Shown piece after piece: positions 6,704 through 22,792 of a stretch of 24,000 bases of DNA. The position numbers were made by a program, and so were the translations under genes. Position 1 is the stretch's first letter. Every line of letters starts with the position of its first letter. The DNA is from an uncultured Acidobacteriota bacterium (GTDB lineage: Bacteria > Acidobacteriota > Blastocatellia > Pyrinomonadales > Pyrinomonadaceae), in contig CAWGWK010000001.1 in assembly GCA_963826255.1 (NCBI GenBank), positions 1,236,687-1,260,686 on the forward strand, given 5' to 3'. The notes beneath the pieces were generated by a model, which had not been told where the DNA came from, ran no database searches, and saw nothing but the letters and a program-made list of their open reading frames with translations.

Positions 6704-7604
6704 TAAGCCGCTTCACTGATTCTTTCAACATCAAGCGCCGGCTGCTGATCGTCGCCATGTGAAAAGGGACCACACATCCGCAGCGATCGCAATCGGCGTT
6801 GTCGCCCATCATGCATTTTCCCTTTTGCTCGCCGGTTGGACCAAACGCGAACGCTTTCAAACGAAACTCACAATTGTCGGTAACTTTTTTCGCATTCCTG
6901 GATCTCATCAGCTCGAGCGTGGAGTCGAGCATGTTGATGTATCCCGGATACTGCTTCTTCAGCGAAAGAATCTGATCTATCAATTGATCACGTACAGGCC
7001 AGTCAAGCCATAGCACTTCGTTGAGCCCTGTCACTGGCGTGAAGAAGTCGAAGATGATCCCACCGCGTGCGATTGGTCCCCACTCCTTAACGAGATCTTC
7101 CACGCAGTCTTTAGTGATGCTCGTCAGCACGCAGGAGATCTGAATGTTCAACTCCTGATGAGCAACGACGTTCTGTTTTATCTTTTGATAGATACCCGGT
7201 GCACGCATGCGCGCGAAAGCTTCTTCAGTGCCGTCGATTGAGATGACCCAAGTGCAGTTGGGCCAGTTCGGCAGCTCCATCGTTCCGTTGGTAACGATGG
7301 TATTGTGTTTGAAGTACTTCCTGCCAACCTCGATCAGTTGCTTTCGGACCATGGGTTCGCCGCCAACCCACGTGCACAGCATCATGGGATGACCGGCAGC
7401 CTTCATTGCTTCGAGCTTCTCCAGCCACTTCTCGATCGAGAGTTCTTTTTCGTTATCGTGATCTTCCGCGAAGAAATAGCAGTGCTCACAACGCAGGTTG
7501 CAGCGGTTTGTGACGTCGATCGAGCCGACTGCAAACTTCGGCAGACCAAAGACGAATAGTTTGGTGATGTCGCGGAGCTTGTTAAGCTTTCGGCGTACGT
7601 TCAT
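6696..7604 (-). CDS. radical SAM protein (~302 aa) with a C-terminal Cys cluster
   Basis: It has IDVTNRCNLRCEHCYF (CxxxCxxC), a GGEP motif (WVGGEPMV), and the C-terminal KCMMGDNADCDRCGCVVPF. I chose the ATG at 7604. The open frame extends to a TTG at 7658, and neither start has a clear SD. Confidence 0.8.
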   Translation of the reverse strand: MNVRRKLNKLRDITKLFVFGLPKFAVGSIDVTNRCNLRCEHCYFFAEDHDNEKELSIEKWLEKLEAMKAAGHPMMLCTWVGGEPMVRKQLIEVGRKYFKHNTIVTNGTMELPNWPNCTWVISIDGTEEAFARMRAPGIYQKIKQNVVAHQELNIQISCVLTSITKDCVEDLVKEWGPIARGGIIFDFFTPVTGLNEVLWLDWPVRDQLIDQILSLKKQYPGYINMLDSTLELMRSRNAKKVTDNCEFRLKAFAFGPTGEQKGKCMMGDNADCDRCGCVVPFHMATISSRRLMLKESVKRLTS

Positions 7605-10411: not shown

Positions 10412-10440
10412 GACACGATTTGCACGCAAAGCCTTTTTTT

Positions 10441-10660
10441 AGCCTGCGGAGCAGGCGCAAGCATAAAGCCTGGGGCGTAAGCCCCAGGTCAAAGCGCGAC
10501 AAGTTTCAAGCCCGCGAATGCGGGCGATAGAACAAATGCGGCAAAACGCGAACAATTTCAGCACCCACCACTGACGCCCACTTCGCGGGCTCGAATTCCA
10601 TTGCTTCCAGTTCCTGGGGCTTACGCCCCAGGCTATATGCTTGCGCCTGCTCCGCAGGCT
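10441..10660. repeat. 220-bp palindromic (MITE/REP-like) element with 48-bp terminal inverted repeats
   Basis: Segment 10441-10488 (AGCCTGCGGAGCAGGCGCAAGCATAAAGCCTGGGGCGTAAGCCCCAGG) is the reverse complement of 10613-10660 with a single mismatch. Each arm contains its own hairpin, CCTGGGGC-GTAA-GCCCCAGG. The core holds another hairpin, GCCCGC-GAAT-GCGGGC. Confidence 0.9.
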
Positions 10661-10683
10661 AAAAGCAAATGAAAGCCGAATCA

Positions 10684-10903: not shown

Positions 10904-13900
10904 ATGTTCGACGAACGCGCTTTTATTTCCCAGGTAGAAAGATCCAATCCCGACGAATTAGCGAAACTGCTTGTTCGGCCCACTCTCGAAGAAGAGAAAG
11001 CCCTTCGCGCGCATTTAGGTGACGAGCGTTACCAGCGGATGCATAGCATGGCGTTGAGGCGGAAGGTCAGCCGCAGCGTCATTGAAAAACCACGAGGAAA
11101 TGTCGTCGTCATACACGGCATCATGGGCGCTGAATTAAGTATCAGCAGCAACGGCCGCGCCGGAGATCTGACGTGGGTCAATGCCTTTCGCATCCTCCGC
11201 GGTTGGCTCGATCGTTTGCGACTGACCGACGATGGCCGCTCGGAATTCAATTCAAAATTCACCGTGACCGCGTCGGGCACTATGAAGCGCTACTACGGCG
11301 AAATACTCCTGGCCCTGTCGGAAAATTGGAACGTTAAGGATTTCTATTTCGACTGGCGAAAGGATCTCGAACTTGCCGCAGATTCACTAAACACGATGCT
11401 CGGTACCTGGCTCGACAATAAGAAGCCGGTACATATCGTCGCTCACTCAATGGGCGGTCTCGTCGCGCGCACTTTTATCCAGAAATATCCTGAGCGCTGG
11501 AAAACGATGTTGGATGAAAAGGGGGAAGACGGTGGCAGACTAATCATGCTCGGTACGCCGAATTATGGCTCGTTCGCCATTCCGCAGGTCATTACGGGCG
11601 TGGAAGGGTTAGTGCGAAAACTGGCAAGGCTCGATTTCCGACATAGTCGCCAGGAACTGCTCGAGACGTTCAATTCCTTTGTGGGCTCGTACCAGATGCT
11701 TCCTTCACCTGAGGTGATGAGCAATATCGAACGTCTTTACGATGCGGGCACCTACAGCAAATTCAATGTCACAGTCTCGCAGCAACATCTGAAAAGAGCC
11801 AGAGATCACCACGAGTGGTTGAAAGATGCTGTTGATCTGGATCGAATGATTTACGTGGCCGGCTACGATCAGCCTACCTACTCGGATATCAGCGACTGGG
11901 ACAGACTGGACGGCACGGAAGGATACGCGATGACCGTCGATGGCGATGGCCGTGTGCCACACACGCTCGCTTTGCTGAAGACCTCTGAAGGAGTTCAGAT
12001 TCCGACGTACTACATTCGTGAAAACCACGGCAATCTCTCGTCCAATGGAAGAATCCTGGCGGCACTCGATGAACTGCTGAAAACAGGTAAAACGGATGCT
12101 CTGCTTCCAAAGTTACCAGAGGACCGGGCGTTAAAGGCAAAGAGCCAGAAAGAATTAAGAGAAGAATACGAGGCCGATCTAAAAGCCGAGGAGACCACAC
12201 TCGCGATCTCGCTCGGTCGCATGAGCTCGAGAAGCATTCCGTTTATGCGAGCCCTGGACGAAGAATGTTCCGAACAGCGCGGAGTTAACACCTTAGCTCC
12301 GCCTGTTATCAGTCCTGAGGAACGAAAGGTTGAAGAAGCGATCACTCGGGGATTTCTACCTTTCCGCGGAGAAGGCAAAGCCACCGACGACTCGGTGGAA
12401 GTTGATGAAAATCTGGAACCCGCAAAAATAGAGATCGGACTCATGTTCGGCGGCATTCAGAGCATTGATTACGACAATGTGCTCAGCGATGAGCAGCACC
12501 CTGTTGATTGCATCTCGGTGGGCCATTACATCGGCGTTCAGCCACAACGGGCCGAGCTGGCGCTCGACGAAGCAATCAGCAAGGCTTTAGTTAAGGAAGA
12601 AGAACTCGGCAACCAGCAAGACACAAAACAAGTCGGCAACCAGGAAAGCTCAGAAGAAATCGGCAAACTTGACCTCATCCTCACTCAATACACGGAACGC
12701 GGAATCATCTACGGCCAGTTGGGCCAACCTTTTTTAATGCCCGATCCGCGCACTGGTCGCGAGTCTAAAACCGAACGTTTGATCGCAGTCGCGGGTATGA
12801 ACGAGCCCGGGCGTTTTGGCATACCGGAGTTGACCGTGCTTGCCAGGGAATTGTGCTGGGCTCTCGGGCGCTTGAATAAACTACACCTTGCTACCGTACT
12901 AATCGGCAGTGGAGAAGGGAATCTGGCATTACGCGATGCCGTCTCCGCATGGTTAAGCGGAATTCGACGTGCAGTGGCTGGTTCAAAATTTGACAGCCGC
13001 AGCGGCAGAAGATTAAAGCGAGTAACTTTCGTCGAGCACGATCCTGGCAAAGTAATTCAATTAAATAACATCATTGCTACTCAGCAGGCACAGTTAGAGA
13101 AGCAGAACTTCACCATCGTTTACCAGAAACTCACCCCCGCCCAAGTAGAAGAATTGAAGGTGAAAGCTTATGAAAAAGCCAGGGAAGACTTGGAGAAGAA
13201 TTGGAAGAAAGAACTGGAGGGGAACAGTTCCAATCCCAACGCGATCCCTTCCCGTGTCACGCTGAGTCTCGATCCAGACAAAAATACCTATCGCTTTGGT
13301 GCGATTACCGAAAACGCGTCGATTCCGGAACGCGATACGGTTATCGATCCTAATCTCGTTTGGACAGCTAACGATGAACTGGCAGGTGAGCAGTGGCCCC
13401 CGGTGCAGTTGGAACGCGGACGGTTTCTCGAAGGACTGTTGATGCCTGCCGACTTGCGAAAGCAACTTTACGGCGCAGCACCATTGGTGATGATGCTGGA
13501 TTCTACGACGGCCCGCATTCATTGGGAGATGGTGGCCCAACCTTCACTCGATTCTTCTCCGGTTCGACGCAGTGCCGCGTTAACTAAAGGATTCAAGTAC
13601 GAAGATGATTTTCTGGGTACTTGTCGAGGGTTAACGCGGCAATTGCGCACGACGTTCGCTCCGCCACCCGAACCACCACCGCCACCTCTGAGTATTTTGC
13701 GGATCCTGATCGTCGCCGATCCTGCCGAGGATGCACATCTGCCCGGCGCCGAAGAAGAGGCAGTTTTGGTTGCAGACCTCTTTGAAAGCTACAACCCTAC
13801 TGACGACATTAAGCGCACACGTGTGGAGGTGAAGCGTCTCTTTGGACCAATCGACGCAACTCGCACCAACGTGCTGCGTGAGTTGATGCTCCGGCGCTAC

Positions 13901-14506
13901 GACATTTTGCACTTTGCCGGCCACTGCGTCTTCCAATGGAACGGAGATCCAAGTCTTTCAGGATGGATTTTCAACGTGAAGCGCAAGGAGTTGTTGAGTG
14001 CAAATGAGCTCAACCGGATCGATCGGATTCCAAAGTTTGTTTTTTCAAATGCCTGTGAATCGGGAATAACGCCGGATCGCGCGCGCGATCGAGACGACCG
14101 GCTCGCTCCGAGCTTTGCGGAATCATTCTTCAATCGCGGAGTAGCAAACTTTGTCTGCACGGCATGGCCGGTGGACGATGTGGCCGCCCGTGTTTTTGCA
14201 ATAACGCTTTATTCGCATCTGTTAGGGCTCAAAAACGACTCAGATAAAACCGTCTCACGTCGTACCGGTGGTGCGGTGGCAATGCATGAAGCGATGAGAG
14301 AAGCCCGGCTCGCCATCGCCCGCACACTTAACGGAAGAACCACCTGGGGAGCCTACCAGCATTATGGCAACCCGTATTTTCGTCTCTTTTATGACGAGTC
14401 TGAACAGTGTGGTCCTGATGCGAGTGAGAATTCTAAAGAGGCCACGGGATTAGAACCTAAAGAGCGTTCAGCAGAGGAAACAGCGCCTCAGGCTGCCGCC
14501 AAATAG
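10904..14506 (+). CDS. 1200-aa fusion protein: N-terminal alpha/beta-hydrolase (lipase/LCAT/PGAP1-like), a ~500-aa unassigned central region, and a C-terminal CHAT caspase-like protease
   Basis: SD GGGAG lies 7 nt upstream. The hydrolase motifs are VVVIHGIMG, the nucleophile elbow HIVAHSMGG (Ser182, 11447-11449), LGTPNYGS, VDGDGRVPH and ENHGNL. The CHAT motifs are ILRILIVADP, ILHFAGHCVF (His1007) and FVFSNACESG (Cys1051, 14054-14056). Confidence 0.85.
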   Translation: MFDERAFISQVERSNPDELAKLLVRPTLEEEKALRAHLGDERYQRMHSMALRRKVSRSVIEKPRGNVVVIHGIMGAELSISSNGRAGDLTWVNAFRILRGWLDRLRLTDDGRSEFNSKFTVTASGTMKRYYGEILLALSENWNVKDFYFDWRKDLELAADSLNTMLGTWLDNKKPVHIVAHSMGGLVARTFIQKYPERWKTMLDEKGEDGGRLIMLGTPNYGSFAIPQVITGVEGLVRKLARLDFRHSRQELLETFNSFVGSYQMLPSPEVMSNIERLYDAGTYSKFNVTVSQQHLKRARDHHEWLKDAVDLDRMIYVAGYDQPTYSDISDWDRLDGTEGYAMTVDGDGRVPHTLALLKTSEGVQIPTYYIRENHGNLSSNGRILAALDELLKTGKTDALLPKLPEDRALKAKSQKELREEYEADLKAEETTLAISLGRMSSRSIPFMRALDEECSEQRGVNTLAPPVISPEERKVEEAITRGFLPFRGEGKATDDSVEVDENLEPAKIEIGLMFGGIQSIDYDNVLSDEQHPVDCISVGHYIGVQPQRAELALDEAISKALVKEEELGNQQDTKQVGNQESSEEIGKLDLILTQYTERGIIYGQLGQPFLMPDPRTGRESKTERLIAVAGMNEPGRFGIPELTVLARELCWALGRLNKLHLATVLIGSGEGNLALRDAVSAWLSGIRRAVAGSKFDSRSGRRLKRVTFVEHDPGKVIQLNNIIATQQAQLEKQNFTIVYQKLTPAQVEELKVKAYEKAREDLEKNWKKELEGNSSNPNAIPSRVTLSLDPDKNTYRFGAITENASIPERDTVIDPNLVWTANDELAGEQWPPVQLERGRFLEGLLMPADLRKQLYGAAPLVMMLDSTTARIHWEMVAQPSLDSSPVRRSAALTKGFKYEDDFLGTCRGLTRQLRTTFAPPPEPPPPPLSILRILIVADPAEDAHLPGAEEEAVLVADLFESYNPTDDIKRTRVEVKRLFGPIDATRTNVLRELMLRRYDILHFAGHCVFQWNGDPSLSGWIFNVKRKELLSANELNRIDRIPKFVFSNACESGITPDRARDRDDRLAPSFAESFFNRGVANFVCTAWPVDDVAARVFAITLYSHLLGLKNDSDKTVSRRTGGAVAMHEAMREARLAIARTLNGRTTWGAYQHYGNPYFRLFYDESEQCGPDASENSKEATGLEPKERSAEETAPQAAAK

Positions 14507-14548: not shown

Positions 14549-15469
14549 ATGTCGCAAGTGTCAACCGAAACCGAAGTACCGATGCCGCGTACTCTCCAAA
14601 GAAATGACTGGACGCTGCTCTTAAAGAGGATTCGCGAGGGAAGATGCACGCCTTTTCTCGGCGCTGGAGCTTCCTATGGAACGTTGCCGCTGGGTGCGTC
14701 GATTGCCGAAGACTGGGCCAAGGAATTCGGTTATCCACTCGAAGACTCCGACGATCTGATCAAAGTGTCGCAGTTCGTCGCGGTCGAGGTTGAAGACGCG
14801 ATGTACCCAAAGGAAGAACTCGCTGCCCGGTTCCGAAAGGCTGGGCGCCCTGACTTCAGTTCGCCCACCGAGCCGCATCGATTCCTGGCTGAGTTACCGC
14901 TCCCGGTCTACATCACGACGAACTATGACGATTTCATGGTCCAGGCGTTGCGCGACCAGGGCAAGAAACCGGAACAGGAGATCTGTCGCTGGAACAGTCA
15001 GCTCTACAGTCTGCCGTCGGTGCTTGATCGGTTGGATTACGTGCCCAGTGAAAAGACACCGCTGGTTTTTCATCTTCATGGTCATGCCGGAATTCCGGAA
15101 TCACTGGTGTTGACTGAAGACGACTATCTCGATTTCCTGATGGCGATATCCAAGAAAGAAAACAAACTCCTGCCGCCGCGAGTCCAGGAAGCGATGGCAA
15201 ACGCGTCGTTGCTATTCATCGGCTACCGCATTGCCGACTGGAATTTTCGTGTGCTGTTTCGCAGTGTCGTCACTTCGCTTGAAGCAGGTCAGAAGCGAAA
15301 GCATGTGTCAGTGCAGATCCTCCCGATCGGCAATGTAAGTGACAACATCCGGAAGATGAAGGTGCTGAGCTACCTCGACAAGTACTATCAGGAACTCAAT
15401 ACGCGCGTTTACTGGGGCAAGAGCGACGAGTTCATGTCTGAACTGAGAAACATTTGGGAGGTGCTCTGA
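14549..15469 (+). CDS. SIR2_2-family (sirtuin-like, probable NAD+-consuming) protein, 306 aa
   Basis: SD AGAGGGGA is present upstream. The motifs are PFLGAGASYG (Rossmann GAGxS), YITTNYDDF (Asn125), VFHLHGH (His177), LVLTEDDYL and LLFIGYRIADWNF. Confidence 0.8.
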   Translation: MSQVSTETEVPMPRTLQRNDWTLLLKRIREGRCTPFLGAGASYGTLPLGASIAEDWAKEFGYPLEDSDDLIKVSQFVAVEVEDAMYPKEELAARFRKAGRPDFSSPTEPHRFLAELPLPVYITTNYDDFMVQALRDQGKKPEQEICRWNSQLYSLPSVLDRLDYVPSEKTPLVFHLHGHAGIPESLVLTEDDYLDFLMAISKKENKLLPPRVQEAMANASLLFIGYRIADWNFRVLFRSVVTSLEAGQKRKHVSVQILPIGNVSDNIRKMKVLSYLDKYYQELNTRVYWGKSDEFMSELRNIWEVL

Positions 15470-15470
15470 C

Positions 15471-16712
15471 ATGACTGTTCAAAACCTCGAGCTGTATGTT
15501 GGACCACGCCCGTATGAAGAAAGCAACGCGTCCATCTTCTTTGGACGCGAGCGCGAAGCCCGCGATCTGCTGTCACTCGTGATCGCCAATCAATTGCTTT
15601 TGATCTACGCGCCGTCGGGCGCGGGCAAAACCTCACTCATCAATGCCCGCCTTGTTCCGATGCTCGGCCACGTGAAGGATCCGGCGTTGGCGGAACAGCT
15701 TGGACCAGGCAAGGGTTTTGAGGTTTTGCCAATCGCGCGTGTCAGCGGTCTCGTTCCGGAAACGATGGATCTGGATGCGATTCCAAACTCGAACATCTTT
15801 GTCTTCAATACCCTCGTCAGTTGGCGAAAGAAAGACACCGGAACGCCGTCGGCGCAACAACGCAAACTTGCCGAAAGAGAACTAATCGGAAAGCGGCTTT
15901 GCGACTACCTCGAGGAAACGCGACCCGTCGCGGTCCAATCAGTAGAGGGAGACGATGAAGAAGGCGAGCCGTTGTCCCCGCGCGTCGTGATCTTCGATCA
16001 GTTTGAAGAGATCTTTACTCGCCACTACGAGCGCTGGCAGGACCGTGAAGGATTCTTTGAGCAGATCACGGATGCGCTGAAAGGTGGTCCACTGACGTTG
16101 AGACGTTGCGACATCCGCCGTCCTGCCGCGCTGATGAGCCGGCTGGTAAGAGGCGCCAATTCTGTTTGCCTTGCGCTGCGGGAACGTCTCCCTGACGGTG
16201 TTAACCGGCTGCTCAAGGACGATAAAAAGACGGTTGATGAGCGTCTGGAAGTAATCGTGTCTGAGTTGAACACGATTTTGAAGGGTGAAAGCCTCTACGA
16301 CGAGGAGACATTTGCCGGGATCAATTTGCGTGACGAGACGATGCAATCGCTTCAGCAAAAGCGCAAATCACGCAACTTCCTTGCTTCAAACCGATTGCTT
16401 CTCGAAGACGCTTTTCCAGATGAGATTTACCGGCGCGCAGCAGGAGACCGTGCCTTGCGAGTGGTCTTTTCCATGCGCGAGGACTACATCGCCGAGCTCG
16501 ATCCTTACGCACACCTGTTGCCCGACAGGCTCGGTACGCGTTATCGCCTGGATCGCCTGCGTCGCGATGCCGCGCTGGCCGCGGTGAAGAGTCCACTTCA
16601 GTTCACAACTGTGAGTTTCGCTCCGGGTGTAGCTGAGCGCCTGGTCGATAGCCTGTTACAGACTCCAGTGAAAGTCGCGACGCCGGTTACAACTGGTGAG
16701 GAGATGTTGTAG
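15471..16712 (+). CDS. STAND-type P-loop NTPase, N-terminal fragment (413 aa) of a split gene
   Basis: The ATG is 1 nt after the SIR2 stop, with SD GGGAGG 9 nt upstream. The motifs are FFGREREARDL, Walker A IYAPSGAGKTSL (Lys53), Walker B RVVIFDQFEE (Asp176) and VFSMREDYI. The ORF ends EEML* four codons inside an inserted element. Confidence 0.8.
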   Translation: MTVQNLELYVGPRPYEESNASIFFGREREARDLLSLVIANQLLLIYAPSGAGKTSLINARLVPMLGHVKDPALAEQLGPGKGFEVLPIARVSGLVPETMDLDAIPNSNIFVFNTLVSWRKKDTGTPSAQQRKLAERELIGKRLCDYLEETRPVAVQSVEGDDEEGEPLSPRVVIFDQFEEIFTRHYERWQDREGFFEQITDALKGGPLTLRRCDIRRPAALMSRLVRGANSVCLALRERLPDGVNRLLKDDKKTVDERLEVIVSELNTILKGESLYDEETFAGINLRDETMQSLQQKRKSRNFLASNRLLLEDAFPDEIYRRAAGDRALRVVFSMREDYIAELDPYAHLLPDRLGTRYRLDRLRRDAALAAVKSPLQFTTVSFAPGVAERLVDSLLQTPVKVATPVTTGEEML

Positions 16713-16892
16713 CCACTGGTAGTGCCTGGTCTTTCTCTGCGTAATCTCTGCGGTCCTGGGCGCCTCTGCGTGAATGTATTCCTAAGTCCTAATAACCGCA
16801 GAGGCGCCGAGGACCGCAGAGATTACGCAGAGAAGATCTCAAGTTTTGATTTATGCACGGGGAGGCCCGAATATGAGTGATAAGACCTGGAT
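16700..16892. mobile_element. ~193-bp non-autonomous insertion (MITE-like) interrupting the STAND NTPase gene
   Basis: It is flanked by the 9-bp direct repeat AACTGGTGA (16691-16699 and 16893-16901). It contains a 37-bp-stem palindrome. Deleting 202 bp joins the two ORFs in frame. The exact boundaries are uncertain and no transposase is encoded. Confidence 0.45.
16734..16833. repeat. long palindrome (37-nt arms, 26-nt loop)
   Basis: Segment 16734-16770 (TCTCTGCGTAATCTCTGCGGTCCTGGGCGCCTCTGCG) matches the reverse complement of 16797-16833 at 36 of 37 positions. Confidence 0.9.
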
Positions 16893-19689
16893 AACTGGTG
16901 AATTCGTTGAAACAGTGCAGTTGCAGGTAGTCTGCCGGACATTGATTAGTAAGCTCGCGCCAAATGCCACCGAGATTTCGATGGAGCATTTGGAAGCTTA
17001 CGGCAGTCTCGATAAAGCGCTGCAAGTGTTTTACGAAGATTCAATCCGTGAAGTGGTTGAGAAAACAAGGGAAGTACTGCAGCGCAAAGGCAAGAGCGAG
17101 ATCAAAGAAGGAGTCTTGCGCAATTGGTTCGAAAAGAAACTTATTACTCAAGCACACACTCGCGGTCTGATTTATCGCGGCGCCACTCACACGGAAGGTC
17201 TCATCAACGAAGCTGTCAACCTATTGGACCAGGCACACATCATTCGTGAAGAACGACGCGGCAGTGGTCGCTGGTACGAGTTGAGTCACGATCGCTTTGT
17301 CGATCCTATCCTGACCTCAAACAAAGAGTGGATGCTGCAATACTCCGGCGCTGCCAAGGTACGTCAATGGCTGGAAGAACGGGCCACACGTTGGAACCAA
17401 ACTCAGGATGAGACAGCGCTGCTCAGCGAAAACGAACTCAAAGAAGCGGAAAGTTGGGTAGCGAGTGCTGAAGCCTCCGAGCTCGGCTACGATCGATCGG
17501 TAACAAATCTGATTCAGGCCAGCCGCACCCATATAAATAACAAGAAGGTGCAAAGGGAATTCGAGATCGAGAGTGCCAACAAGCTGGCGCGATCGGCGCG
17601 GCGTTTTAAGTGGGCATCGATTGGGCTTGCTGTGATGTTCGTTCTCGCCTTGACCACTACCTTAATTGCTTCGGTCCAATGGAGAAAGGCGTACGATAAT
17701 CTCGAGTTAGCAGAAGAACGGGAACAAGAGGCACAGAGACTGCAAAAACAAGCGTCACAGCAGGCCGAACGCGAGTTATGGGCGAGGGTGGCTGCCATAC
17801 AGGCGGCCAAGGAAGCAGATGCAGCCAGACAAGAGGCAGCAAATCGTGCCGATGAAGCGGAGAAAGCCAAAAAAGAAGCGGTGGAAGCCCAACGAGCAGC
17901 GGAAAAGGCCAGGGGTGAATTACGAGATGCGCTGAAGAAAGCTGAAGAACGCGCGCGCGAAGCTGAGCGAGCGCGAAAGACCGATCAACTGTCTCGCGAA
18001 GCCTTCCGTCTCTCGAGAAGACCGGAGAGTCAACAGGACGCTGTCGAACAATTCAATCGCGCGATTGATGTCTACAAAGAGACCGGCGACCGCGACGCGC
18101 AGGCTGACAGCTATCTGAATCAAGGTCAGGTTTACAAAGACATGGGTGAAGTGGAGCGGGCCGAAGACGCATTCAATAAAGCGTTGCAACTCTATCGACA
18201 CACACCCGCGGACCCGCAAAAACAAGCCAGCACCCTAAACAACATTGGCATTATTTATACTTCGTCCGGTGCGTCGGATCCCCTCACGGGGGAACGTAAC
18301 GAGGAGGCTTTGGCAACTGCAAAGACGAAGTTCTACAGTGCCCTCACCATGTATCGCGCCCTTCAAGACCTGTTTGGTGAAGCTGCAACTTTGACGAACA
18401 TCGGTGATGCCCAATTGGCGATGAAATCCAAGGATGATCGCAGGCGGGCGTCGGATTTTTACGAGCGAGCCCTGGGTATCTACACATACTCCGTGATGAA
18501 TAATTCTGCAAATCAGGAAAAACACTTAAGGGCCCTTCTTGGAATGTTCATCTCATTGGGCAACAAGCAGGCTCTGCTGGCTGAGGCTAATGAGGACACG
18601 TTTTCGTTAGATGATCGTATTGAAATGTATAAGGAAGCCCTCGATCTTTACACGCAGCTCAACGATAAGCGTGGCATGGCGATCGCCAATACCAAAATCG
18701 GAGCAGCAACTGAAGAGGCTTTGCAAAGCGCGGCAACCGAGAACGTTGAACGCTATGAGAAGCTCGTATTGGATAGTTACAAGAAAGCCGCGGATCTTTA
18801 CAAAGAGTCGCATGATGCAATCGGAGAGGCTGGCGCGCACATAAGTTTAGGGCACTATTACCAGACGCTCGCGGATCCGGAAAAGCGGAGCAAAGCGGTA
18901 GGTGAGTACAGCCTGGCGGCGACTATTTACCGGAGTATCGACGATCGTGCCGGACAGATTCGTGCTCACAAGGCTCTCTACGATTTCTATGCGACGTCCT
19001 CCGAGGCGGAGCACAAAGCAAAAGCTGTTGCATCTTTGGTCCTCATGAACGACCTCTACCGAGAGCTCGAAAATGTAAGGGGACAGAGTGACACGTATCT
19101 CAAACTCGGCGCGCTTCACGAGAATCTTCAATTTCGCGATAAGGCAGAAACCGCCTTCGACGAAGCCTTGAAGCTTTATCGAACTTCGGGTGATAAGAAA
19201 ACAGAAGCAGACGTCCTCGGAGAGATTGGCAGAATATATGCTAAGTCGAAAGATAAAGCGGGTGTGGAGTTAGCGGTACAACGACTCAACCAGGCCGCTG
19301 ATATTTACCGCGAAACCAAGAGCACAGAGGCGTTGGCCGCCACCTATAACAAGCTCGCTGAACTTCACAGCCAAAGTCCGTGGAGGTTGGCTTTCCCGGC
19401 CGACGAAGCGACCCAATGGTACTTGAACGCTGTTAAGTACTATGAGATGGAAGCAGACACGTATCGTGGTAAAGGGTCGAAATCCGACCCGGTGAAGGTG
19501 GCCAAAGTGCTGCGATTCATTGGGTCAGTGTACCGCGATCGGTTGGACGATAAAGCCAAAGCATTGGAGTCGTTGAATCAAGCGCTGAAGCTCTACGAAG
19601 AGGCGCGAAATCCTGCGGGCATCAGAGCGGTTAAGATTGAGATCGCAAACCTGGCGAAGCAAAGCGGCGCTGAGACTTCAAAACCATAA
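16873..19689 (+). CDS. STAND NTPase C-terminal fragment: helical/winged-helix region, hydrophobic helix, coiled coil, TPR array (938 aa from the ATG)
   Basis: SD GGAGG lies 7 nt upstream of the ATG at 16873; the open frame begins at a TTG at 16846. EFVETVQLQVVC continues the NTPase module. The hydrophobic helix is WASIGLAVMFVLALTTTLIASV. A ~100-aa E/A/R/K coiled coil follows. At least seven TPR-like motifs are visible (AEDAFNKALQLYR, ASDFYERALGIYT, IEMYKEALDLYTQ, LDSYKKAADLYKE, AETAFDEALKLYR, VQRLNQAADIYRE, LESLNQALKLYEE). Confidence 0.8.
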   Translation: MSDKTWITGEFVETVQLQVVCRTLISKLAPNATEISMEHLEAYGSLDKALQVFYEDSIREVVEKTREVLQRKGKSEIKEGVLRNWFEKKLITQAHTRGLIYRGATHTEGLINEAVNLLDQAHIIREERRGSGRWYELSHDRFVDPILTSNKEWMLQYSGAAKVRQWLEERATRWNQTQDETALLSENELKEAESWVASAEASELGYDRSVTNLIQASRTHINNKKVQREFEIESANKLARSARRFKWASIGLAVMFVLALTTTLIASVQWRKAYDNLELAEEREQEAQRLQKQASQQAERELWARVAAIQAAKEADAARQEAANRADEAEKAKKEAVEAQRAAEKARGELRDALKKAEERAREAERARKTDQLSREAFRLSRRPESQQDAVEQFNRAIDVYKETGDRDAQADSYLNQGQVYKDMGEVERAEDAFNKALQLYRHTPADPQKQASTLNNIGIIYTSSGASDPLTGERNEEALATAKTKFYSALTMYRALQDLFGEAATLTNIGDAQLAMKSKDDRRRASDFYERALGIYTYSVMNNSANQEKHLRALLGMFISLGNKQALLAEANEDTFSLDDRIEMYKEALDLYTQLNDKRGMAIANTKIGAATEEALQSAATENVERYEKLVLDSYKKAADLYKESHDAIGEAGAHISLGHYYQTLADPEKRSKAVGEYSLAATIYRSIDDRAGQIRAHKALYDFYATSSEAEHKAKAVASLVLMNDLYRELENVRGQSDTYLKLGALHENLQFRDKAETAFDEALKLYRTSGDKKTEADVLGEIGRIYAKSKDKAGVELAVQRLNQAADIYRETKSTEALAATYNKLAELHSQSPWRLAFPADEATQWYLNAVKYYEMEADTYRGKGSKSDPVKVAKVLRFIGSVYRDRLDDKAKALESLNQALKLYEEARNPAGIRAVKIEIANLAKQSGAETSKP

Positions 19690-20539: not shown

Positions 20540-21572
20540 CGAGCTTGCCGAGTTAGTGAAAGGTCGAATGATCGGCGACGGCGCGACTGTCATCGAACGA
20601 ATAGCCGACCTTGAACATGCCGGCCAGTTTGAGATTGCATACGTTGAGAACGAAAGCTTTCTGGCGAATGCAGCCGAGAGCAAAGCTGCGTGTTTGATAG
20701 TTAGCGAGCGGCTCAGTGAGAAGTTGCCGGATCGGACGCTAATCGAAGTTGTTAATCCGAAGCTCGCGTTCTCGTTGATCGGCGCCGCGCTTCATCCTCC
20801 GATTCGTCGCGAACCGTCAATTCATCCGACGGCTGTCGTTGCTGAAACTGCCGACATTGCACTGACTGCCTACATTGGACCTAACGTGTGCATTGGTGAA
20901 TACACGCACGTCGGTGCTTACACGAGACTCGAAGCTGGAGTGGTGCTGGGCGAGAACGTCACTGTTGGCGACGACTGTGTGCTACACCCGAACGTCGTTT
21001 TATACGATGGTGTTTCGATTGGAACTCGCGTGATCCTGCACGCTGCCGTGTGCATCGGCGCTGATGGTTTTGGTTACGTGCGACACGATCTCGGGTATCA
21101 AAAGTTTCCGCAAGTGGGAACGGTGATTATTGAAGACGACGTGGAGATCGGTGCTCACACGTGCGTTGATCGCGCAGCCCTCGGTCGCACACGCATCGGT
21201 CGCGGTACCAAACTCGATAACATGGTCCATGTCGGCCACAACTGCGACATCGGCGAACGTGTGGTCATTGCCGCGCAAACCGGGATCAGCGGCAGTGTCG
21301 TGATCGAAGACGACGCAGTGATAGGTGGCCAGGTTGGCTTTGGAGATCACACGCGCGTGCAGAAGGGAGCGATCATCGGATCGAAGGCAGGGATCTTGCC
21401 GGGCAAGATCGTTCGTCCGGGCGTGTGGTGGGGAATACCTGTGCAACCACTGGACCAGTACAAACGCATGAACGCCTACATGAATCGTCTGCCACAGATG
21501 AACAAACGTCTCAAGCAACTCGAGGAAAAGTTAGACAGGATTGACAAGATTTTTCAGGATAAGCAGGATTAA
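20520..21572 (+). CDS. lpxD: UDP-3-O-acylglucosamine N-acyltransferase
   Basis: MTQIRVDELAEL...GDG is the LpxD N-terminal domain. Hexapeptide repeats follow, with GADGFGY, VIIEDDVEIGAHTCVDRAALG and HNCDIG. The C-terminal coiled coil resembles that of E. coli LpxD. The gene overlaps lpxA by 20 bp. Confidence 0.92.
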   Translation: MTQIRVDELAELVKGRMIGDGATVIERIADLEHAGQFEIAYVENESFLANAAESKAACLIVSERLSEKLPDRTLIEVVNPKLAFSLIGAALHPPIRREPSIHPTAVVAETADIALTAYIGPNVCIGEYTHVGAYTRLEAGVVLGENVTVGDDCVLHPNVVLYDGVSIGTRVILHAAVCIGADGFGYVRHDLGYQKFPQVGTVIIEDDVEIGAHTCVDRAALGRTRIGRGTKLDNMVHVGHNCDIGERVVIAAQTGISGSVVIEDDAVIGGQVGFGDHTRVQKGAIIGSKAGILPGKIVRPGVWWGIPVQPLDQYKRMNAYMNRLPQMNKRLKQLEEKLDRIDKIFQDKQD

Positions 21573-21605
21573 CCTGTCCATCCGGACAAATCTTGTCAAT
21601 CCTGT
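21535..21605. repeat. 18-bp perfect inverted repeat with a 35-nt structured spacer between convergent lpxD and lpxB (probable bidirectional terminator)
   Basis: ACAGGATTGACAAGATTT (21535-21552) is the exact reverse complement of 21588-21605. The spacer contains CAGG-ATTAA-CCTG and GTCC-ATCC-GGAC mini-hairpins. Confidence 0.6.
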
Positions 21606-22792
21606 AAAAACTTTAAGATCGATTGCGCGGCGCGTTGGGAGGCGCCGGGCTGGCCCAGTTTCTCAGCGACGTCTCGTAACGTCGCACGTGCGGCGCGGTT
21701 TGTTTCGGGGTCGAGTAGTTTCAGGAGTTCGTGCGTGAGGTTCTCGCCCGTAAACTGGTCCTGCATAAGTTCTTTCGCGATCTCTTTACCTGCCACCAGA
21801 TTCACCAATCCGAAATGTGGCACCGTAATCAATCGACCTAACGTGTGCCAGTTGATCGGCGATTCCTTGTAAACTACAACCATCGGTGTTTCGAGCAGTG
21901 CTGCCTCCAGCGTTGCAGTGCCGCTGGCGACGGCGGCCGCATCTGAAGCGCCCAGGGCCTCACGAGTTTGTTGTTGGACCAACTTGACGACTTGAGAATC
22001 CTTGCGGGACATGATCGGCAGTGTCTCTTCCGCTGTGCGGCTCGGCGCGACGACAATAACCGGCTGCACGTCAGGACGCGCAACGCGCAGCGTCTCGATT
22101 GCCTGGAGCATGGGCGGCAGAATTCGTTCCAACTCCTTTCGCCGGCTTCCAGGCAAAAAAGAAACGATTGGCCGTGAGGGATCGAGATCGTTGCGCCGGC
22201 AAAACTCTTCGCGTCCGAAACTCGCTTTCACTTCACCTGACAGTGGATGCCCCACAAACTCAACATGGCCCACACCGTGATCTCGATACCATTCGGCTTC
22301 AAACGGCAGAATCGACAACAACAGATCGACGTCGCGTTTGATCTTGCTGACGCGACGCGCCCGCCACGCCCAAAGTTGTGGACTGATGTAATAGATCACT
22401 TTCAAACCACGCCGGTGGAGGGCTGACGCAAGTCGCAGATTGAACTCAGGCCAATCCACGAGTACCACGGCGTCGGGCGATCGTTCGATTGCTGCCGTTC
22501 TAAGTTTGCGGAAGGCGCGGATGAATCTTGGCAAGACGCTGCCGACTTCAACGATTCCCATGATCGCAAGGTCGTCTGAATTGACGATCGTTTCGACGCC
22601 CGCAGTGCGCATCCGTGGTCCAGTCGCGCCGAAAAAGTGGAAGCCGGAGCCATTTGCTCGCAATGCAGTGACCAGCGCAGCAGCGTGAGCATCACCCGAC
22701 GGCTCACCAGCAACGATCATCAAGTTGGGCACGGCGCGAATGATATCAGATCGTAAATTCTGTAAATCCTGTCTATTCGTGTTAGCATCCAC
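21596..22792 (-). CDS. lpxB: lipid-A-disaccharide synthase
   Basis: LMIVAGEPSGDAHAAALVTAL is the LpxB N-terminal signature. Also present are YYISPQLWAWR and ASGTATLEAAL, and the length is ~390 aa. The start is uncertain: GTG at 22792, GTG at 22732 or ATG at 22720. Confidence 0.9.
   Translation of the reverse strand: MDANTNRQDLQNLRSDIIRAVPNLMIVAGEPSGDAHAAALVTALRANGSGFHFFGATGPRMRTAGVETIVNSDDLAIMGIVEVGSVLPRFIRAFRKLRTAAIERSPDAVVLVDWPEFNLRLASALHRRGLKVIYYISPQLWAWRARRVSKIKRDVDLLLSILPFEAEWYRDHGVGHVEFVGHPLSGEVKASFGREEFCRRNDLDPSRPIVSFLPGSRRKELERILPPMLQAIETLRVARPDVQPVIVVAPSRTAEETLPIMSRKDSQVVKLVQQQTREALGASDAAAVASGTATLEAALLETPMVVVYKESPINWHTLGRLITVPHFGLVNLVAGKEIAKELMQDQFTGENLTHELLKLLDPETNRAARATLRDVAEKLGQPGASQRAAQSILKFLQD

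What the first reader, a model, noticed from the sequence alone, without database searches (positions are those of the whole stretch)
16691..16901. STAND NTPase gene split by a 202-bp palindrome-bearing insertion; in-silico excision restores a single ORF
The 413-aa ORF stops at 16712 and the 947-aa ORF resumes in a different frame. AACTGGTGA occurs at 16691-16699 and again at 16893-16901. Deleting one copy plus the intervening 193 bp gives ...GTT ACA ACT GGT GAA TTC GTT GAA ACA GTG CAG..., that is ...KVATPVTTGEFVETVQLQVVC..., a seamless in-frame junction. The junction lies just upstream of the conserved VExxQLQVVC segment found in related single-polypeptide STAND NTPases.

The inserted segment contains a 36/37-bp palindrome (16734-16833). 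It introduces a stop four codons after the entry point. Near its exit it also carries a good SD (GGAGG) and an ATG (16873), so both halves could still be translated. The sensor may therefore be either inactivated or converted into a two-chain protein.
Basis: seen in the sequence. Interest (0 to 1): 0.72.

Follow-up and report, generated by a model that had tools for sequence, protein, structure and literature searches.

The report
Anciently split immune-type NTPase, palindrome passenger
The NTPase gene was not broken by the palindrome: relatives without any palindrome carry the same two-gene split, both halves are kept by selection, and the palindrome is a repeat element that landed later in the gap between them.

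Summary

- **The split is old.** Every homologue sharing at least about 57% identity is split at the same point. That is more than 35 N-halves of about 390-430 aa and about 20 C-halves of about 930-940 aa, adjacent wherever a locus was read. Single-chain forms appear only at 47% identity or less.
- **The palindrome is not the cause.** Eight of the 13 distinct orthologous junctions read have no palindrome. There the halves overlap by 4 or 11 nt or lie 14-61 nt apart.
- **The last ~43 nt of the supposed insertion is not inserted DNA.** It is the near-invariant SD, ATG and first codons (MSDKTWITGE) of the C-half.
- **No recoding.** The relative frame of the halves varies among orthologues.
- **Both halves are functional.** dN/dS is 0.09-0.18 at dS 0.5-1.7.

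The palindrome occupies about 16713-16834. It is a secondary insertion of a dispersed REP/REPIN-like repeat built from TCTCTGCG units, and similar arms occur in other Acidobacteriota genomes. Unrelated palindromes sit in the same spacer in other lineages.

In an AlphaFold model of a fused relative, the split falls at the turn of a β-hairpin in the helical lid of the NTPase.

Verdict: a conserved gene fission with a passenger repeat, of modest interest.

The parts
10904..14506 (+). 1200-aa protein with an alpha/beta-hydrolase-like domain and a CHAT (caspase-like) domain; first gene of the cluster and an accessory one, absent in orthologue L084
   Evidence: Pfam CHAT 2.6e-25 and LCAT/hydrolase hits. 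Present in L085, L086 and L087; absent in L084.
14549..15469 (+). SIR2_2-domain protein of 306 aa, the likely NAD-consuming effector; it ends 1 nt before the N-half start
   Evidence: Pfam SIR2_2 1.2e-27. PADLOC ThsA-type SIR2 9.7e-22. A SIR2_2 gene also directly precedes the fused relatives P0039 and P0041.
15471..16712 (+). N-half of the split nSTAND1 NTPase, 413 aa: Walker A GAGKTS (residue 50), Walker B VVIFDQFEE (172), the VVFSMRED strand (331), the first lid helices, and the first strand of the β-hairpin
   Evidence: Pfam nSTAND1 1.6e-26, 94 bits against a cutoff of 27. Motif positions. dN/dS 0.09-0.15 against nine orthologues. Domain mapping from alignment A1 onto the AF2 model of P0039.
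16691..16699 (+). Direct-repeat copy 1, AACTGGTGA, encoding T-G-E in the N-half tail (..PVTTGEEML*)
   Evidence: The same tail occurs in L081 and L085, and as ITGK with synonymous changes in L087.
16713..16732 (+). 20 nt, CCACTGGTAGTGCCTGGTCT, specific to this lineage, between the stop codon and the palindrome; origin unexplained
   Evidence: Absent from all orthologue spacers. In the MFE fold it pairs, with G-U pairs, to codons 4-9 of the C-half.
16733..16834 (.). Palindromic repeat element: arms 16733-16770 and 16797-16834 (three TCTCTGCG units each) around a 26-nt loop; a secondary insertion into the intercistronic spacer
   Evidence: Arms about 90% identical to copies in other genomes, mostly Acidobacteriota (L154, L099, L126, L128 and others). 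Absent from eight orthologous spacers.
16835..16858 (+). Remnant of the ancestral spacer, GATCTCAAGTTTTGATTTATGCAC
   Evidence: Homologous to the L084 spacer (AGATCCACGTTTT...GATTTATGCAC) and to those of L009 and L087 (..TTTGTGCAA..).
16859..16865 (+). Shine-Dalgarno GGGGAGG of the C-half cistron
   Evidence: Retained, with one or two changes at most, upstream of the ATG in the eight aligned junctions. Coordinates.
16873..19689 (+). C-half of the split NTPase, 938 aa. It starts MSDKTWITGEFVETVQLQVVC (second β-hairpin strand and next lid helix), followed by the winged-helix domain (WYELSHD at residue 134), a TM helix (residues 247-268, nt 17611-17676), a coiled coil and a TPR array
   Evidence: The start is invariant in 16 C-halves. 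Pfam TPR_12 1.2e-19. dN/dS 0.15-0.18. Gene callers start it at 16873 (P0035, 938 aa). TM and WHD positions.
16893..16901 (+). Direct-repeat copy 2, AACTGGTGA, encoding T-G-E of the invariant ITGEFVE

Best explanation
An nSTAND1-TPR STAND NTPase that works with an upstream SIR2 effector underwent gene fission in an ancestor of a Pyrinomonadaceae-like (Acidobacteriota) clade. Since then it has been encoded as two adjacent cistrons.

**Shown**
- The cut lies at the turn of a β-hairpin inside the helical lid, between the P-loop domain and the winged-helix domain.
- The N-half ends with the first strand plus a short variable tail.
- The C-half has its own conserved SD and ATG and begins with the second strand (DKTWIT) and the next lid helix.

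**Inferred**
- The two chains must co-fold non-covalently to complete the lid. They would then act like the single-chain relatives: nucleotide-dependent switching that controls the SIR2 effector and, where present, the CHAT effector.

**The palindrome**
- The element at 16733-16834 did not cause the split.
- It is a copy of a dispersed REP/REPIN-like repeat built from TCTCTGCG units.
- It inserted later between the N-half stop codon and the old spacer.
- That spacer has been hit independently by other palindromic repeats in sister lineages.
- Inferred and untested: once transcribed, its hairpin of about -90 kcal/mol probably acts as an intercistronic RNA structure. It could block 3' exonucleases, serve as an RNase III substrate, or break translational coupling, and so shift the ratio of the halves without abolishing either.

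**The direct repeat**
- The 9-nt repeat reflects a T-G-E tripeptide duplicated at the fission point. It predates the palindrome.
For: **Split is general in the clade.**
- every hit with at least 57% identity is either an N-half of 390-430 aa or a C-half of 927-940 aa. Full-length hits share 47% identity or less.
- the N-halves all stop just after LLQTPV(R/K)V.. and the C-halves all start MSDKTWITGEFVETVQLQVVC.

**Junction DNA.**
- Thirteen distinct orthologous junctions were read.
- The halves overlap by 4 or 11 nt, or are separated by 14-160 nt.
- Relative frames are 0, +1 or +2.
- Eight junctions have no inverted repeat.
- SD, ATG and codons 1-9 are near-invariant in the eight aligned junctions.

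**Selection.** dN/dS is 0.09-0.15 for the N-half and 0.15-0.18 for the C-half, at dS 0.5-1.7.

**Fused relatives.** P0039 and P0041 sit directly downstream of a SIR2_2 gene, as the split gene does here.

**Structure.** AF2 model of P0039, mean pLDDT 81.8: helix 358-367, strands 368-373 and 376-381, helix 387-403 (PVQLQVVC...). The split maps to the hairpin turn.

**Repeat family.** The arm motif was found in 86 genomic stretches, many from Acidobacteriota, Pyrinomonadaceae or Blastocatellia. Full arms are about 90% identical. They occur as singles and as inverted pairs in both orientations.

**Other palindromes in the same spacer.** L081 and L085 carry CTTTGCG-unit elements, L004 a CTCTGTG-unit element, and L001 a GTAG-tagged element.

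**Independent assembly.** L080 has the identical junction.
Against: - No transcript or protein data exist. Association of the two chains is inferred from the model of a fused relative, not observed.
- The copy number of the repeat in the source genome could not be measured. The source genome was not among the genomes scanned, and the 24-kb window has only this copy.
- A regulatory role for the hairpin is speculation. It may be a neutral passenger.
- How the fission arose is unresolved: an insertion with a target duplication, or a small duplication.
Confidence: 0.85

Rival explanations
1. One reading: a recent MITE-like 202-bp element with a 9-bp target-site duplication inserted into an intact STAND gene and split or inactivated it. 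Precise excision would restore the gene.
For: An exact 9-nt repeat brackets the segment, deletion gives an in-frame ORF colinear with fused homologues, and the segment contains a near-perfect palindrome.
Against: - The same split exists without any palindrome in eight orthologous junctions.
- The 3' ~43 nt of the segment is conserved SD, start and coding sequence.
- The segment ends are not inverted repeats.
- The repeat also flanks a different palindrome in L081 and L085.
- Both halves are under purifying selection at saturating dS.
Confidence: 0.03
2. An old version of the reader's mechanism. In the clade ancestor, a short insertion of about 55-65 nt, carrying a stop, an SD and an ATG, entered the hairpin codons with a target duplication of about 9 bp. 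The repeat AACTGGTGA is the fossil of that duplication. This rivals only the origin of the fission (small local duplication, or coincidence of codon choice), not its present state.
For: - T-G-E is encoded on both sides of the spacer in the window, L081 and L085. In L087 it appears as I-T-G with synonymous differences.
- The repeat sits at homologous positions (p ~1e-4).
- The shortest spacer, in L087, leaves the halves in the same frame separated by one stop.
Against: - No significant repeat is seen in the more distant split orthologues L002, L003, L004, L005 and L009.
- The N-tail varies through indels.
- No homology extends upstream of the repeat.
- In the hairpin, the C-half head (DKTWIT) aligns to the fused relatives (GITEIP) at least as well as the N-tail does.
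Confidence: 0.3
3. Programmed recoding makes one polypeptide despite the interruption: translational bypass from the take-off ACT-GGT to the identical landing ACT-GGT 202 nt downstream, as in T4 gene 60, or frameshifting or readthrough.
For: In this window there are identical codons at both sites, a stop shortly after the first, a strong hairpin in the gap, and an SD-like GGGGAGG before the landing site.
Against: - Gap length runs from an 11-nt overlap to 160 nt, relative frame is 0, +1 or +2, and the matched codons are not conserved among orthologues.
- A conserved SD, ATG and MSDKTW start shows independent initiation.
- 202 nt is about four times the longest known bypass (own knowledge: about 50 nt in T4 gene 60).
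Confidence: 0.02
4. The locus is a decaying pseudogene pair. The split inactivated the sensor and the halves are drifting.
For: An interrupted reading frame and a repeat element inside the locus.
Against: - dN/dS is 0.09-0.18 on both halves over dS 0.5-1.7.
- Full-length halves are retained in every orthologue whose contig is long enough to show them.
- Synteny with SIR2 and lpxA/D/B is conserved.
Confidence: 0.02
5. The palindrome is a self-splicing or self-excising RNA or DNA element, such as a small intron or an invertible or excisable switch, that restores a continuous message.
For: A strong, thermodynamically exceptional hairpin lies exactly between the halves.
Against: - No Rfam family matches. 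The only hits are sub-threshold generic miRNA-hairpin matches.
- The element is absent or different in orthologues that keep the same split.
- Removing the hairpin alone (16733-16834) does not join the frames, because the stop and the SD/ATG remain.
Confidence: 0.02

Closest known systems
nSTAND1-clade STAND NTPases of bacterial conflict systems (Kaur, Iyer, Burroughs & Aravind 2021, PMC8195603; Pfam PF20703)
   Same: The N-half scores 94 bits on PF20703 against a cutoff of 27, with Walker A and B motifs. There is a C-terminal TPR array, and the neighbouring effector genes (SIR2, CHAT caspase-like) are typical of such systems.
   Different: Here the NTPase module is cut in two cistrons inside its helical lid, and this is conserved across a clade. 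Described nSTAND1 proteins, and the nearest relatives found here (47% identity or less), are single chains. A TM helix separates the NTPase from the TPR array.
SIR2-associated STAND defence proteins (Avs-type antiviral STANDs with a SIR2 effector) and Thoeris ThsA SIR2; recalled from own knowledge, plus PADLOC hits
   Same: A SIR2 NADase-type domain is paired with a STAND NTPase that carries a repeat sensor. The SIR2 protein matches ThsA-type SIR2 models at 9.7e-22.
   Different: SIR2 is a separate polypeptide. No PADLOC system model matches the NTPase halves beyond a marginal hit. Defence function is untested.
REP / REPIN elements and the TIR repeats of RAYT-like transposases (Bertels & Rainey 2011, PMC3116915; Di Nocera et al. 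2013, PMC3733652)
   Same: - Short dispersed palindromic repeats, here sitting just downstream of a coding region.
- They occur as singles and as head-to-head or tail-to-tail pairs.
- Several copies occur per genome in other Acidobacteriota MAGs.
- PMC3733652 reports long-TIR repeat families and RAYT-like genes in Acidobacteria.
   Different: - The single arm is not itself a palindrome. It is built from direct TCTCTGCG units.
- No GTAG or CGTC tag abuts the stem.
- No RAYT or other transposase is in the window.
- Near-identical arms appear in MAGs assigned to other phyla, which is unusual for REPINs.
MITEs such as Correia/NEMIS elements (own knowledge)
   Same: About 100 bp, made almost entirely of inverted-repeat arms, able to sit within operons and form RNA hairpins.
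   Different: No target-site duplication belongs to the hairpin itself. The 9-nt repeat belongs to the older fission. No parent IS was identified.
Translational bypass in phage T4 gene 60 (own knowledge)
   Same: In this one genome: matched take-off and landing codons, a nearby stop, and a hairpin in the gap.
   Different: None of these features is conserved among orthologues, and the downstream half has its own conserved start.

Membership tests
   The ends of 16700-16892 (GGAGATGTTG... / ...AAGACCTGGAT) are not inverted repeats. The inverted repeat is internal, at 16733-16834.
   The same repeat flanks a different palindrome in L081 and L085. It persists as I-T-G codons in palindrome-free L087.
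   Palindrome-free orthologues L002, L003, L005, L006, L007, L009, L084 and L087 are still split, with a stop, an SD and an ATG.
   There is no second copy in the window. Only the arm motif recurs in other genomes. The source genome itself could not be scanned.
Conserved gene fission (two-cistron protein) | Both parts adjacent, co-oriented and retained across a clade, with a fused form in outgroups | tested here: met
Conserved gene fission (two-cistron protein) | Purifying selection on both parts after the split | tested here: met
   dN/dS 0.09-0.15 for the N-half and 0.15-0.18 for the C-half.
Conserved gene fission (two-cistron protein) | Independent translation start for the downstream part | tested here: met
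   A conserved GGGGAGG, an ATG and an invariant MSDKTWITGE. Expression itself was not tested.
Conserved gene fission (two-cistron protein) | The two chains physically associate | not testable with these tools
   Inferred from the split falling at a β-hairpin turn inside one domain of the AF2 model of fused P0039.
nSTAND1 STAND NTPase (PF20703) | Profile match above the curated threshold, with P-loop motifs | tested here: met
   94.3 bits against a cutoff of 27.1. GAGKTS at residue 50 and VVIFDQFEE at 172.
nSTAND1 STAND NTPase (PF20703) | NTPase, helical lid, winged helix and repeat sensor on one polypeptide | tested here: not met
   These are divided between the 413-aa and 938-aa products.
REP/REPIN | Dispersed, multi-copy, extragenic short repeat forming a hairpin as an inverted pair | tested here: inconclusive
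   Related arms occur in 86 stretches, and ten genomes each have two hits under an exact 18-base criterion. The genome-wide count in the source was not obtainable.
REP/REPIN | GTAG (or CGTC) tag adjoining the stem | tested here: not met
   No tag abuts the arms at 16733 or 16834. A GTAG lies 11 nt upstream of the stem, at 16719-16722. By contrast, the L001 element is GTAG-tagged.
REP/REPIN | Cognate RAYT or TIRYT transposase in the genome | not testable with these tools
   None among the window's ORFs. The whole genome was not available.
Programmed translational bypass | Matched take-off and landing codons and gap architecture conserved among orthologues, with no separate start | tested here: not met

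The most novel reading that the evidence does not exclude
The fission is not a neutral accident but creates a two-component STAND switch. The nucleotide-binding half and the winged-helix/sensor half are separate chains that complete one lid domain through an intermolecular β-hairpin. Their ratio would be set by the intercistronic spacer, which different lineages have repeatedly re-equipped with different hairpin repeats.

Alongside this, the TCTCTGCG-unit palindromes may be an undescribed repeat family lacking GTAG/CGTC tags. Their arms are about 90% identical across MAGs assigned to several phyla.
Probability: 0.15. Interest if true: 0.5.

Novelty: new variant of a known kind. Interest (0 to 1): 0.3.

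Why it matters
- **Annotation.** Reading this locus as a transposon-broken defence gene would wrongly label a functional, long-conserved system as a pseudogene. It would also suggest a mobile-element arms-race story that the data do not support.
- **What is real.** A STAND (NLR-like) NTPase has stayed functional for a long time although its nucleotide-binding module is cut inside the lid domain. It is a natural split-protein case that could be used to study how the NBD, lid and winged-helix contacts control STAND activation.
- **The spacer.** It shows how REP-like hairpins repeatedly colonise the few non-coding gaps inside a compact operon.

Tried and rejected
- **Rfam.** Gathering-threshold search of the whole window and a permissive search of 16600-17000 gave only sub-threshold miRNA-hairpin look-alikes. 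No known RNA family matches.
- **Terminator scan.** The palindrome is not a terminator-like site, because no T-run adjoins the stem.
- **PDB sequence search with the repaired N-terminal 675 aa.** Nothing useful.
- **Foldseek of the P0039 model against PDB.** The TPR array dominated the hits, so it gave no help with the NTPase domains.
- **Literature search by repeat sequence.** Only unrelated primer matches.
- **Genome-collection scan for the arm motif.** It did not hit the source genome, so the copy number there is unknown.
- **P0002, the 97%-identical N-half.** Its contig has no retrievable DNA. It ends 52 nt after the stop, so whether it carries the palindrome is unknown.
- **Shorter relatives (P0079, P0109, P0116, P0119).** I checked whether these 404-436-aa proteins are further split N-halves. 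They are not: they run through GEFVEPVQLQVVC and the winged helix.
- **Stop-free-stretch test of whether repeat copies are intergenic.** Uninformative, because the repeats themselves lack stops in some frames.
- **Rejected readings.** Translational bypass, frameshifting, an intron, and pseudogene decay; reasons are given under the rival explanations.

Full report
**1. Observation.** The described features are all present.
- AACTGGTGA occurs at 16691-16699 and 16893-16901.
- An inverted repeat has 38-nt arms at 16733-16770 and 16797-16834, 97% complementary, with a 26-nt loop.
- The arm has no chance counterpart in shuffles. The region folds at -107.5 kcal/mol, z = -9.7.
- The 413-aa ORF ends at 16712. 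The next ORF runs to 19689 from TTG 16846, or from ATG 16873 preceded by GGGGAGG.
- Deleting 16700-16901 yields one 1338-aa ORF.
- A 9-nt repeat somewhere in about 400 nt is common: 25% of random sequences and 50 of 118 real windows. At these homologous positions it is not (p ~1.4e-4; 3 of 500 local shuffles).

**2. Context.** The cluster reads, in order:
- a 1200-aa hydrolase/CHAT protein;
- a 306-aa SIR2_2 protein;
- the 413-aa nSTAND1 N-half;
- the 938-aa C-half with TPR repeats;
- then lpxA, lpxD and lpxB.

The SIR2 protein resembles ThsA-type SIR2. nSTAND1 was defined as a STAND clade of bacterial conflict systems (PMC8195603). The nearest named homologues come from Pyrinomonadaceae MAGs.

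**3. The split is ancestral and conserved.**
- A search with the repaired N-terminal 675 aa returned only half-proteins among close relatives. N-halves are 390-430 aa at 59-100% identity. C-halves are 927-940 aa.
- Proteins covering at least 90% of the query share 47% identity or less (P0036, P0039, P0040, P0041, P0043).
- All N-halves stop shortly after LLQTPV(R/K)V.. with variable tails.
- Sixteen C-halves begin with an invariant M-x-D-x-TWITGEFVETVQLQVVC.
- Fused relatives are colinear across the junction (..KTAEGITEIPGEFVEPVQLQVVC..). The "repaired" protein is therefore plausible, though two residues shorter.

**4. Junction DNA in orthologues** (loci; sequences). Thirteen distinct orthologous junctions were read besides the window, not counting L080, which duplicates the window, or the near-identical second contigs L082 and L086.

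| Locus | Spacer between stop and ATG | Palindrome |
|---|---|---|
| L006 | 11-nt overlap | none |
| L003 | 4-nt overlap (ATGA) | none |
| L005 | 14 nt | none |
| L007 | 16 nt | none |
| L087 | 27 nt | none |
| L009 | 31 nt | none |
| L002 | 32 nt | none |
| L084 | 61 nt | none |
| L004 | 86 nt | yes |
| L081 | 125 nt | yes |
| L001 | 126 nt | yes |
| L085 | 127 nt | yes |
| window | 160 nt | yes |

- The relative frame of the halves is 0, +1 or +2. L081 and L082 differ by a 1-nt indel in the spacer. The spacer is therefore non-coding and no recoding scheme is conserved.
- GGGGAGGCCCGAnnATGAGTGAYAARACCTGGATWACYGGTG is near-invariant in the eight aligned junctions with at least 77% identity.
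- The preceding ..AGATCTCAAGTTTTGATTTATGCAC is shared with L084, L009 and L087.
- Only about 16713-16834 is lineage-specific.
- L080, an independent assembly, matches the window exactly.

**5. Both halves are functional.** Nei-Gojobori estimates for the window against nine or ten orthologues give dN/dS of 0.09-0.15 for the N-half and 0.15-0.18 for the C-half, at dS 0.5-1.7.

Synteny is conserved: radical-SAM genes, then CHAT where present, SIR2, N-half, C-half, lpxA/D/B. The fused relatives P0039 and P0041 also directly follow a SIR2_2 gene. SIR2 plus STAND is therefore the ancestral module, and the fission is derived in this clade.

**6. Where the cut lies.** An AlphaFold model of fused P0039 was built with alignment A5 (mean pLDDT 81.8).
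- It shows helix 358-367 (VAEHLVENLL), strands 368-373 (KIQMKT) and 376-381 (GITEIP), and helix 387-403 (PVQLQVVC..).
- Mapping through A1, the N-half ends with the first strand and the C-half begins two residues before the second.
- The split is therefore at a β-hairpin turn inside the helical lid, upstream of the winged helix (WYELSHD). This implies, by inference, obligate co-folding of the two chains.

**7. The direct repeat.**
- T-G-E is encoded in the N-tail (PVTTGEEML*) and in the C-head (WITGEFVE).
- The repeat is also present in L081 (ACTGGTGA on both sides) and L085 (AACCGGTGA against AACTGGTGA), although both carry a different palindrome.
- In palindrome-free L087 it appears as I-T-G-K against I-T-G-E, with synonymous third-base differences.
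- It is not detectable in more distant split orthologues.
- It therefore predates the palindrome. It is a relic of a short duplication at the fission site, or a fossil target duplication of an ancient small insertion. I could not decide between these.

**8. The palindrome.**
- Its arms consist of TCTCTGCG units.
- A scan of 185,579 species-representative genomes for TCTCTGCGNNNTCTCTGCGGT found 86 stretches. Many are from Acidobacteriota, Pyrinomonadaceae or Blastocatellia, and ten genomes have two hits each.
- Whole arms are about 90% identical in L154, L099, L126 and L128, and also in MAGs labelled Heliobacteriaceae and Gemmataceae.
- Arms occur singly and as inverted pairs in both orientations. 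The arrangement arm-GGTGAA-loop-TTCACC-arm seen in L099, L126 and L153 is also the window's arrangement.
- This behaviour is REP/REPIN- or TIR-repeat-like (PMC3116915; PMC3733652). However, no GTAG or CGTC tag adjoins the stem, and no transposase is in the window.
- The same spacer holds other, unrelated or differently oriented palindromes: CTTTGCG-unit elements in L081 and L085, a CTCTGTG-unit element in L004, and a GTAG-tagged GGGGCGGCC element in L001. L084 has a 22-nt single unit.
- The spacer has thus been colonised several times independently.

**9. Mechanism.**
- Shown: two cistrons, an independent start for the second, and selection on both.
- Inferred: non-covalent assembly through the hairpin and lid; nucleotide-dependent control of the SIR2 and CHAT effectors, as in other STAND systems; a hairpin RNA that uncouples or tunes expression of the two halves. 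No T-run follows the stem, so it does not look like an intrinsic terminator.

The locus is a conserved fission variant of a known kind of system, carrying a passenger repeat. Interest is modest.

Noticed in passing
window 10437-10488 and 10613-10664: A second large inverted repeat (52-nt arms, 98% complementary, 124 nt apart) lies in the 566-nt intergenic region upstream of the CHAT gene. The right arm is the Rfam Acido-Lenti-1 RNA hit (37.9 bits against a cutoff of 37). Two inverted copies suggest that this 'sRNA' motif behaves here as a dispersed palindromic repeat.
   Followed up: partly
window 17611-17676 (C-half residues 247-268): A predicted single transmembrane helix (WASIGLAVMFVLALTTTLIASV) sits between the winged-helix domain and a long coiled coil plus TPR array. 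The fused relative P0039 has the same feature. This would put the TPR sensor on the other side of the membrane from the NTPase, which is unusual for STAND defence proteins.
   Followed up: partly
L081 1899-1989; L085 7247-7332; L004 6245-6323; L001 1275-1360; L084 ~7245-7266: The spacer between the two halves carries different palindromic repeats in different lineages: CTTTGCG-unit, CTCTGTG-unit and GTAG-tagged GGGGCGGCC types, plus a 22-nt single unit in L084. This indicates repeated independent colonisation of the same short gap.
   Followed up: partly
L096, L105, L111, L114, L154 and others: Arms built from TCTCTGCG units and ending in GGTGAA are about 90% identical in MAGs assigned to Acidobacteriota, Heliobacteriaceae, Heliomicrobium and Gemmataceae. 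They occur as singles and as head-to-head or tail-to-tail pairs. Either the family is truly cross-phylum, or the MAGs are mis-binned. No paper was found by searching the sequence.
   Followed up: partly
window 16713-16732: The 20 nt CCACTGGTAGTGCCTGGTCT between the N-half stop and the palindrome is absent from every orthologue. In the MFE fold it pairs, using G-U pairs, with codons 4-9 of the C-half, enclosing the SD and AUG in an inner loop. Its origin and meaning are unexplained.
   Followed up: no
L084 4534-5079 compared with window 10904-14506: The CHAT/hydrolase gene is missing in orthologue L084 (SIR2 follows the radical-SAM gene directly) but present in L085, L086 and L087. It is therefore an accessory component of the cluster.
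   Followed up: no
L087 5171-5320; L082 1460-1711: In these two orthologues the halves happen to lie in the same reading frame, separated only by in-frame stops: one TAA in L087, and TAG plus a further stop in L082. L081 differs from L082 by a 1-nt indel. This is further evidence that the spacer frame is free to drift.
   Followed up: yes
window 21526-21614: An imperfect 42-nt-arm palindrome (79% complementary, 5-nt loop) spans the junction of the convergent lpxD and lpxB genes.
   Followed up: no
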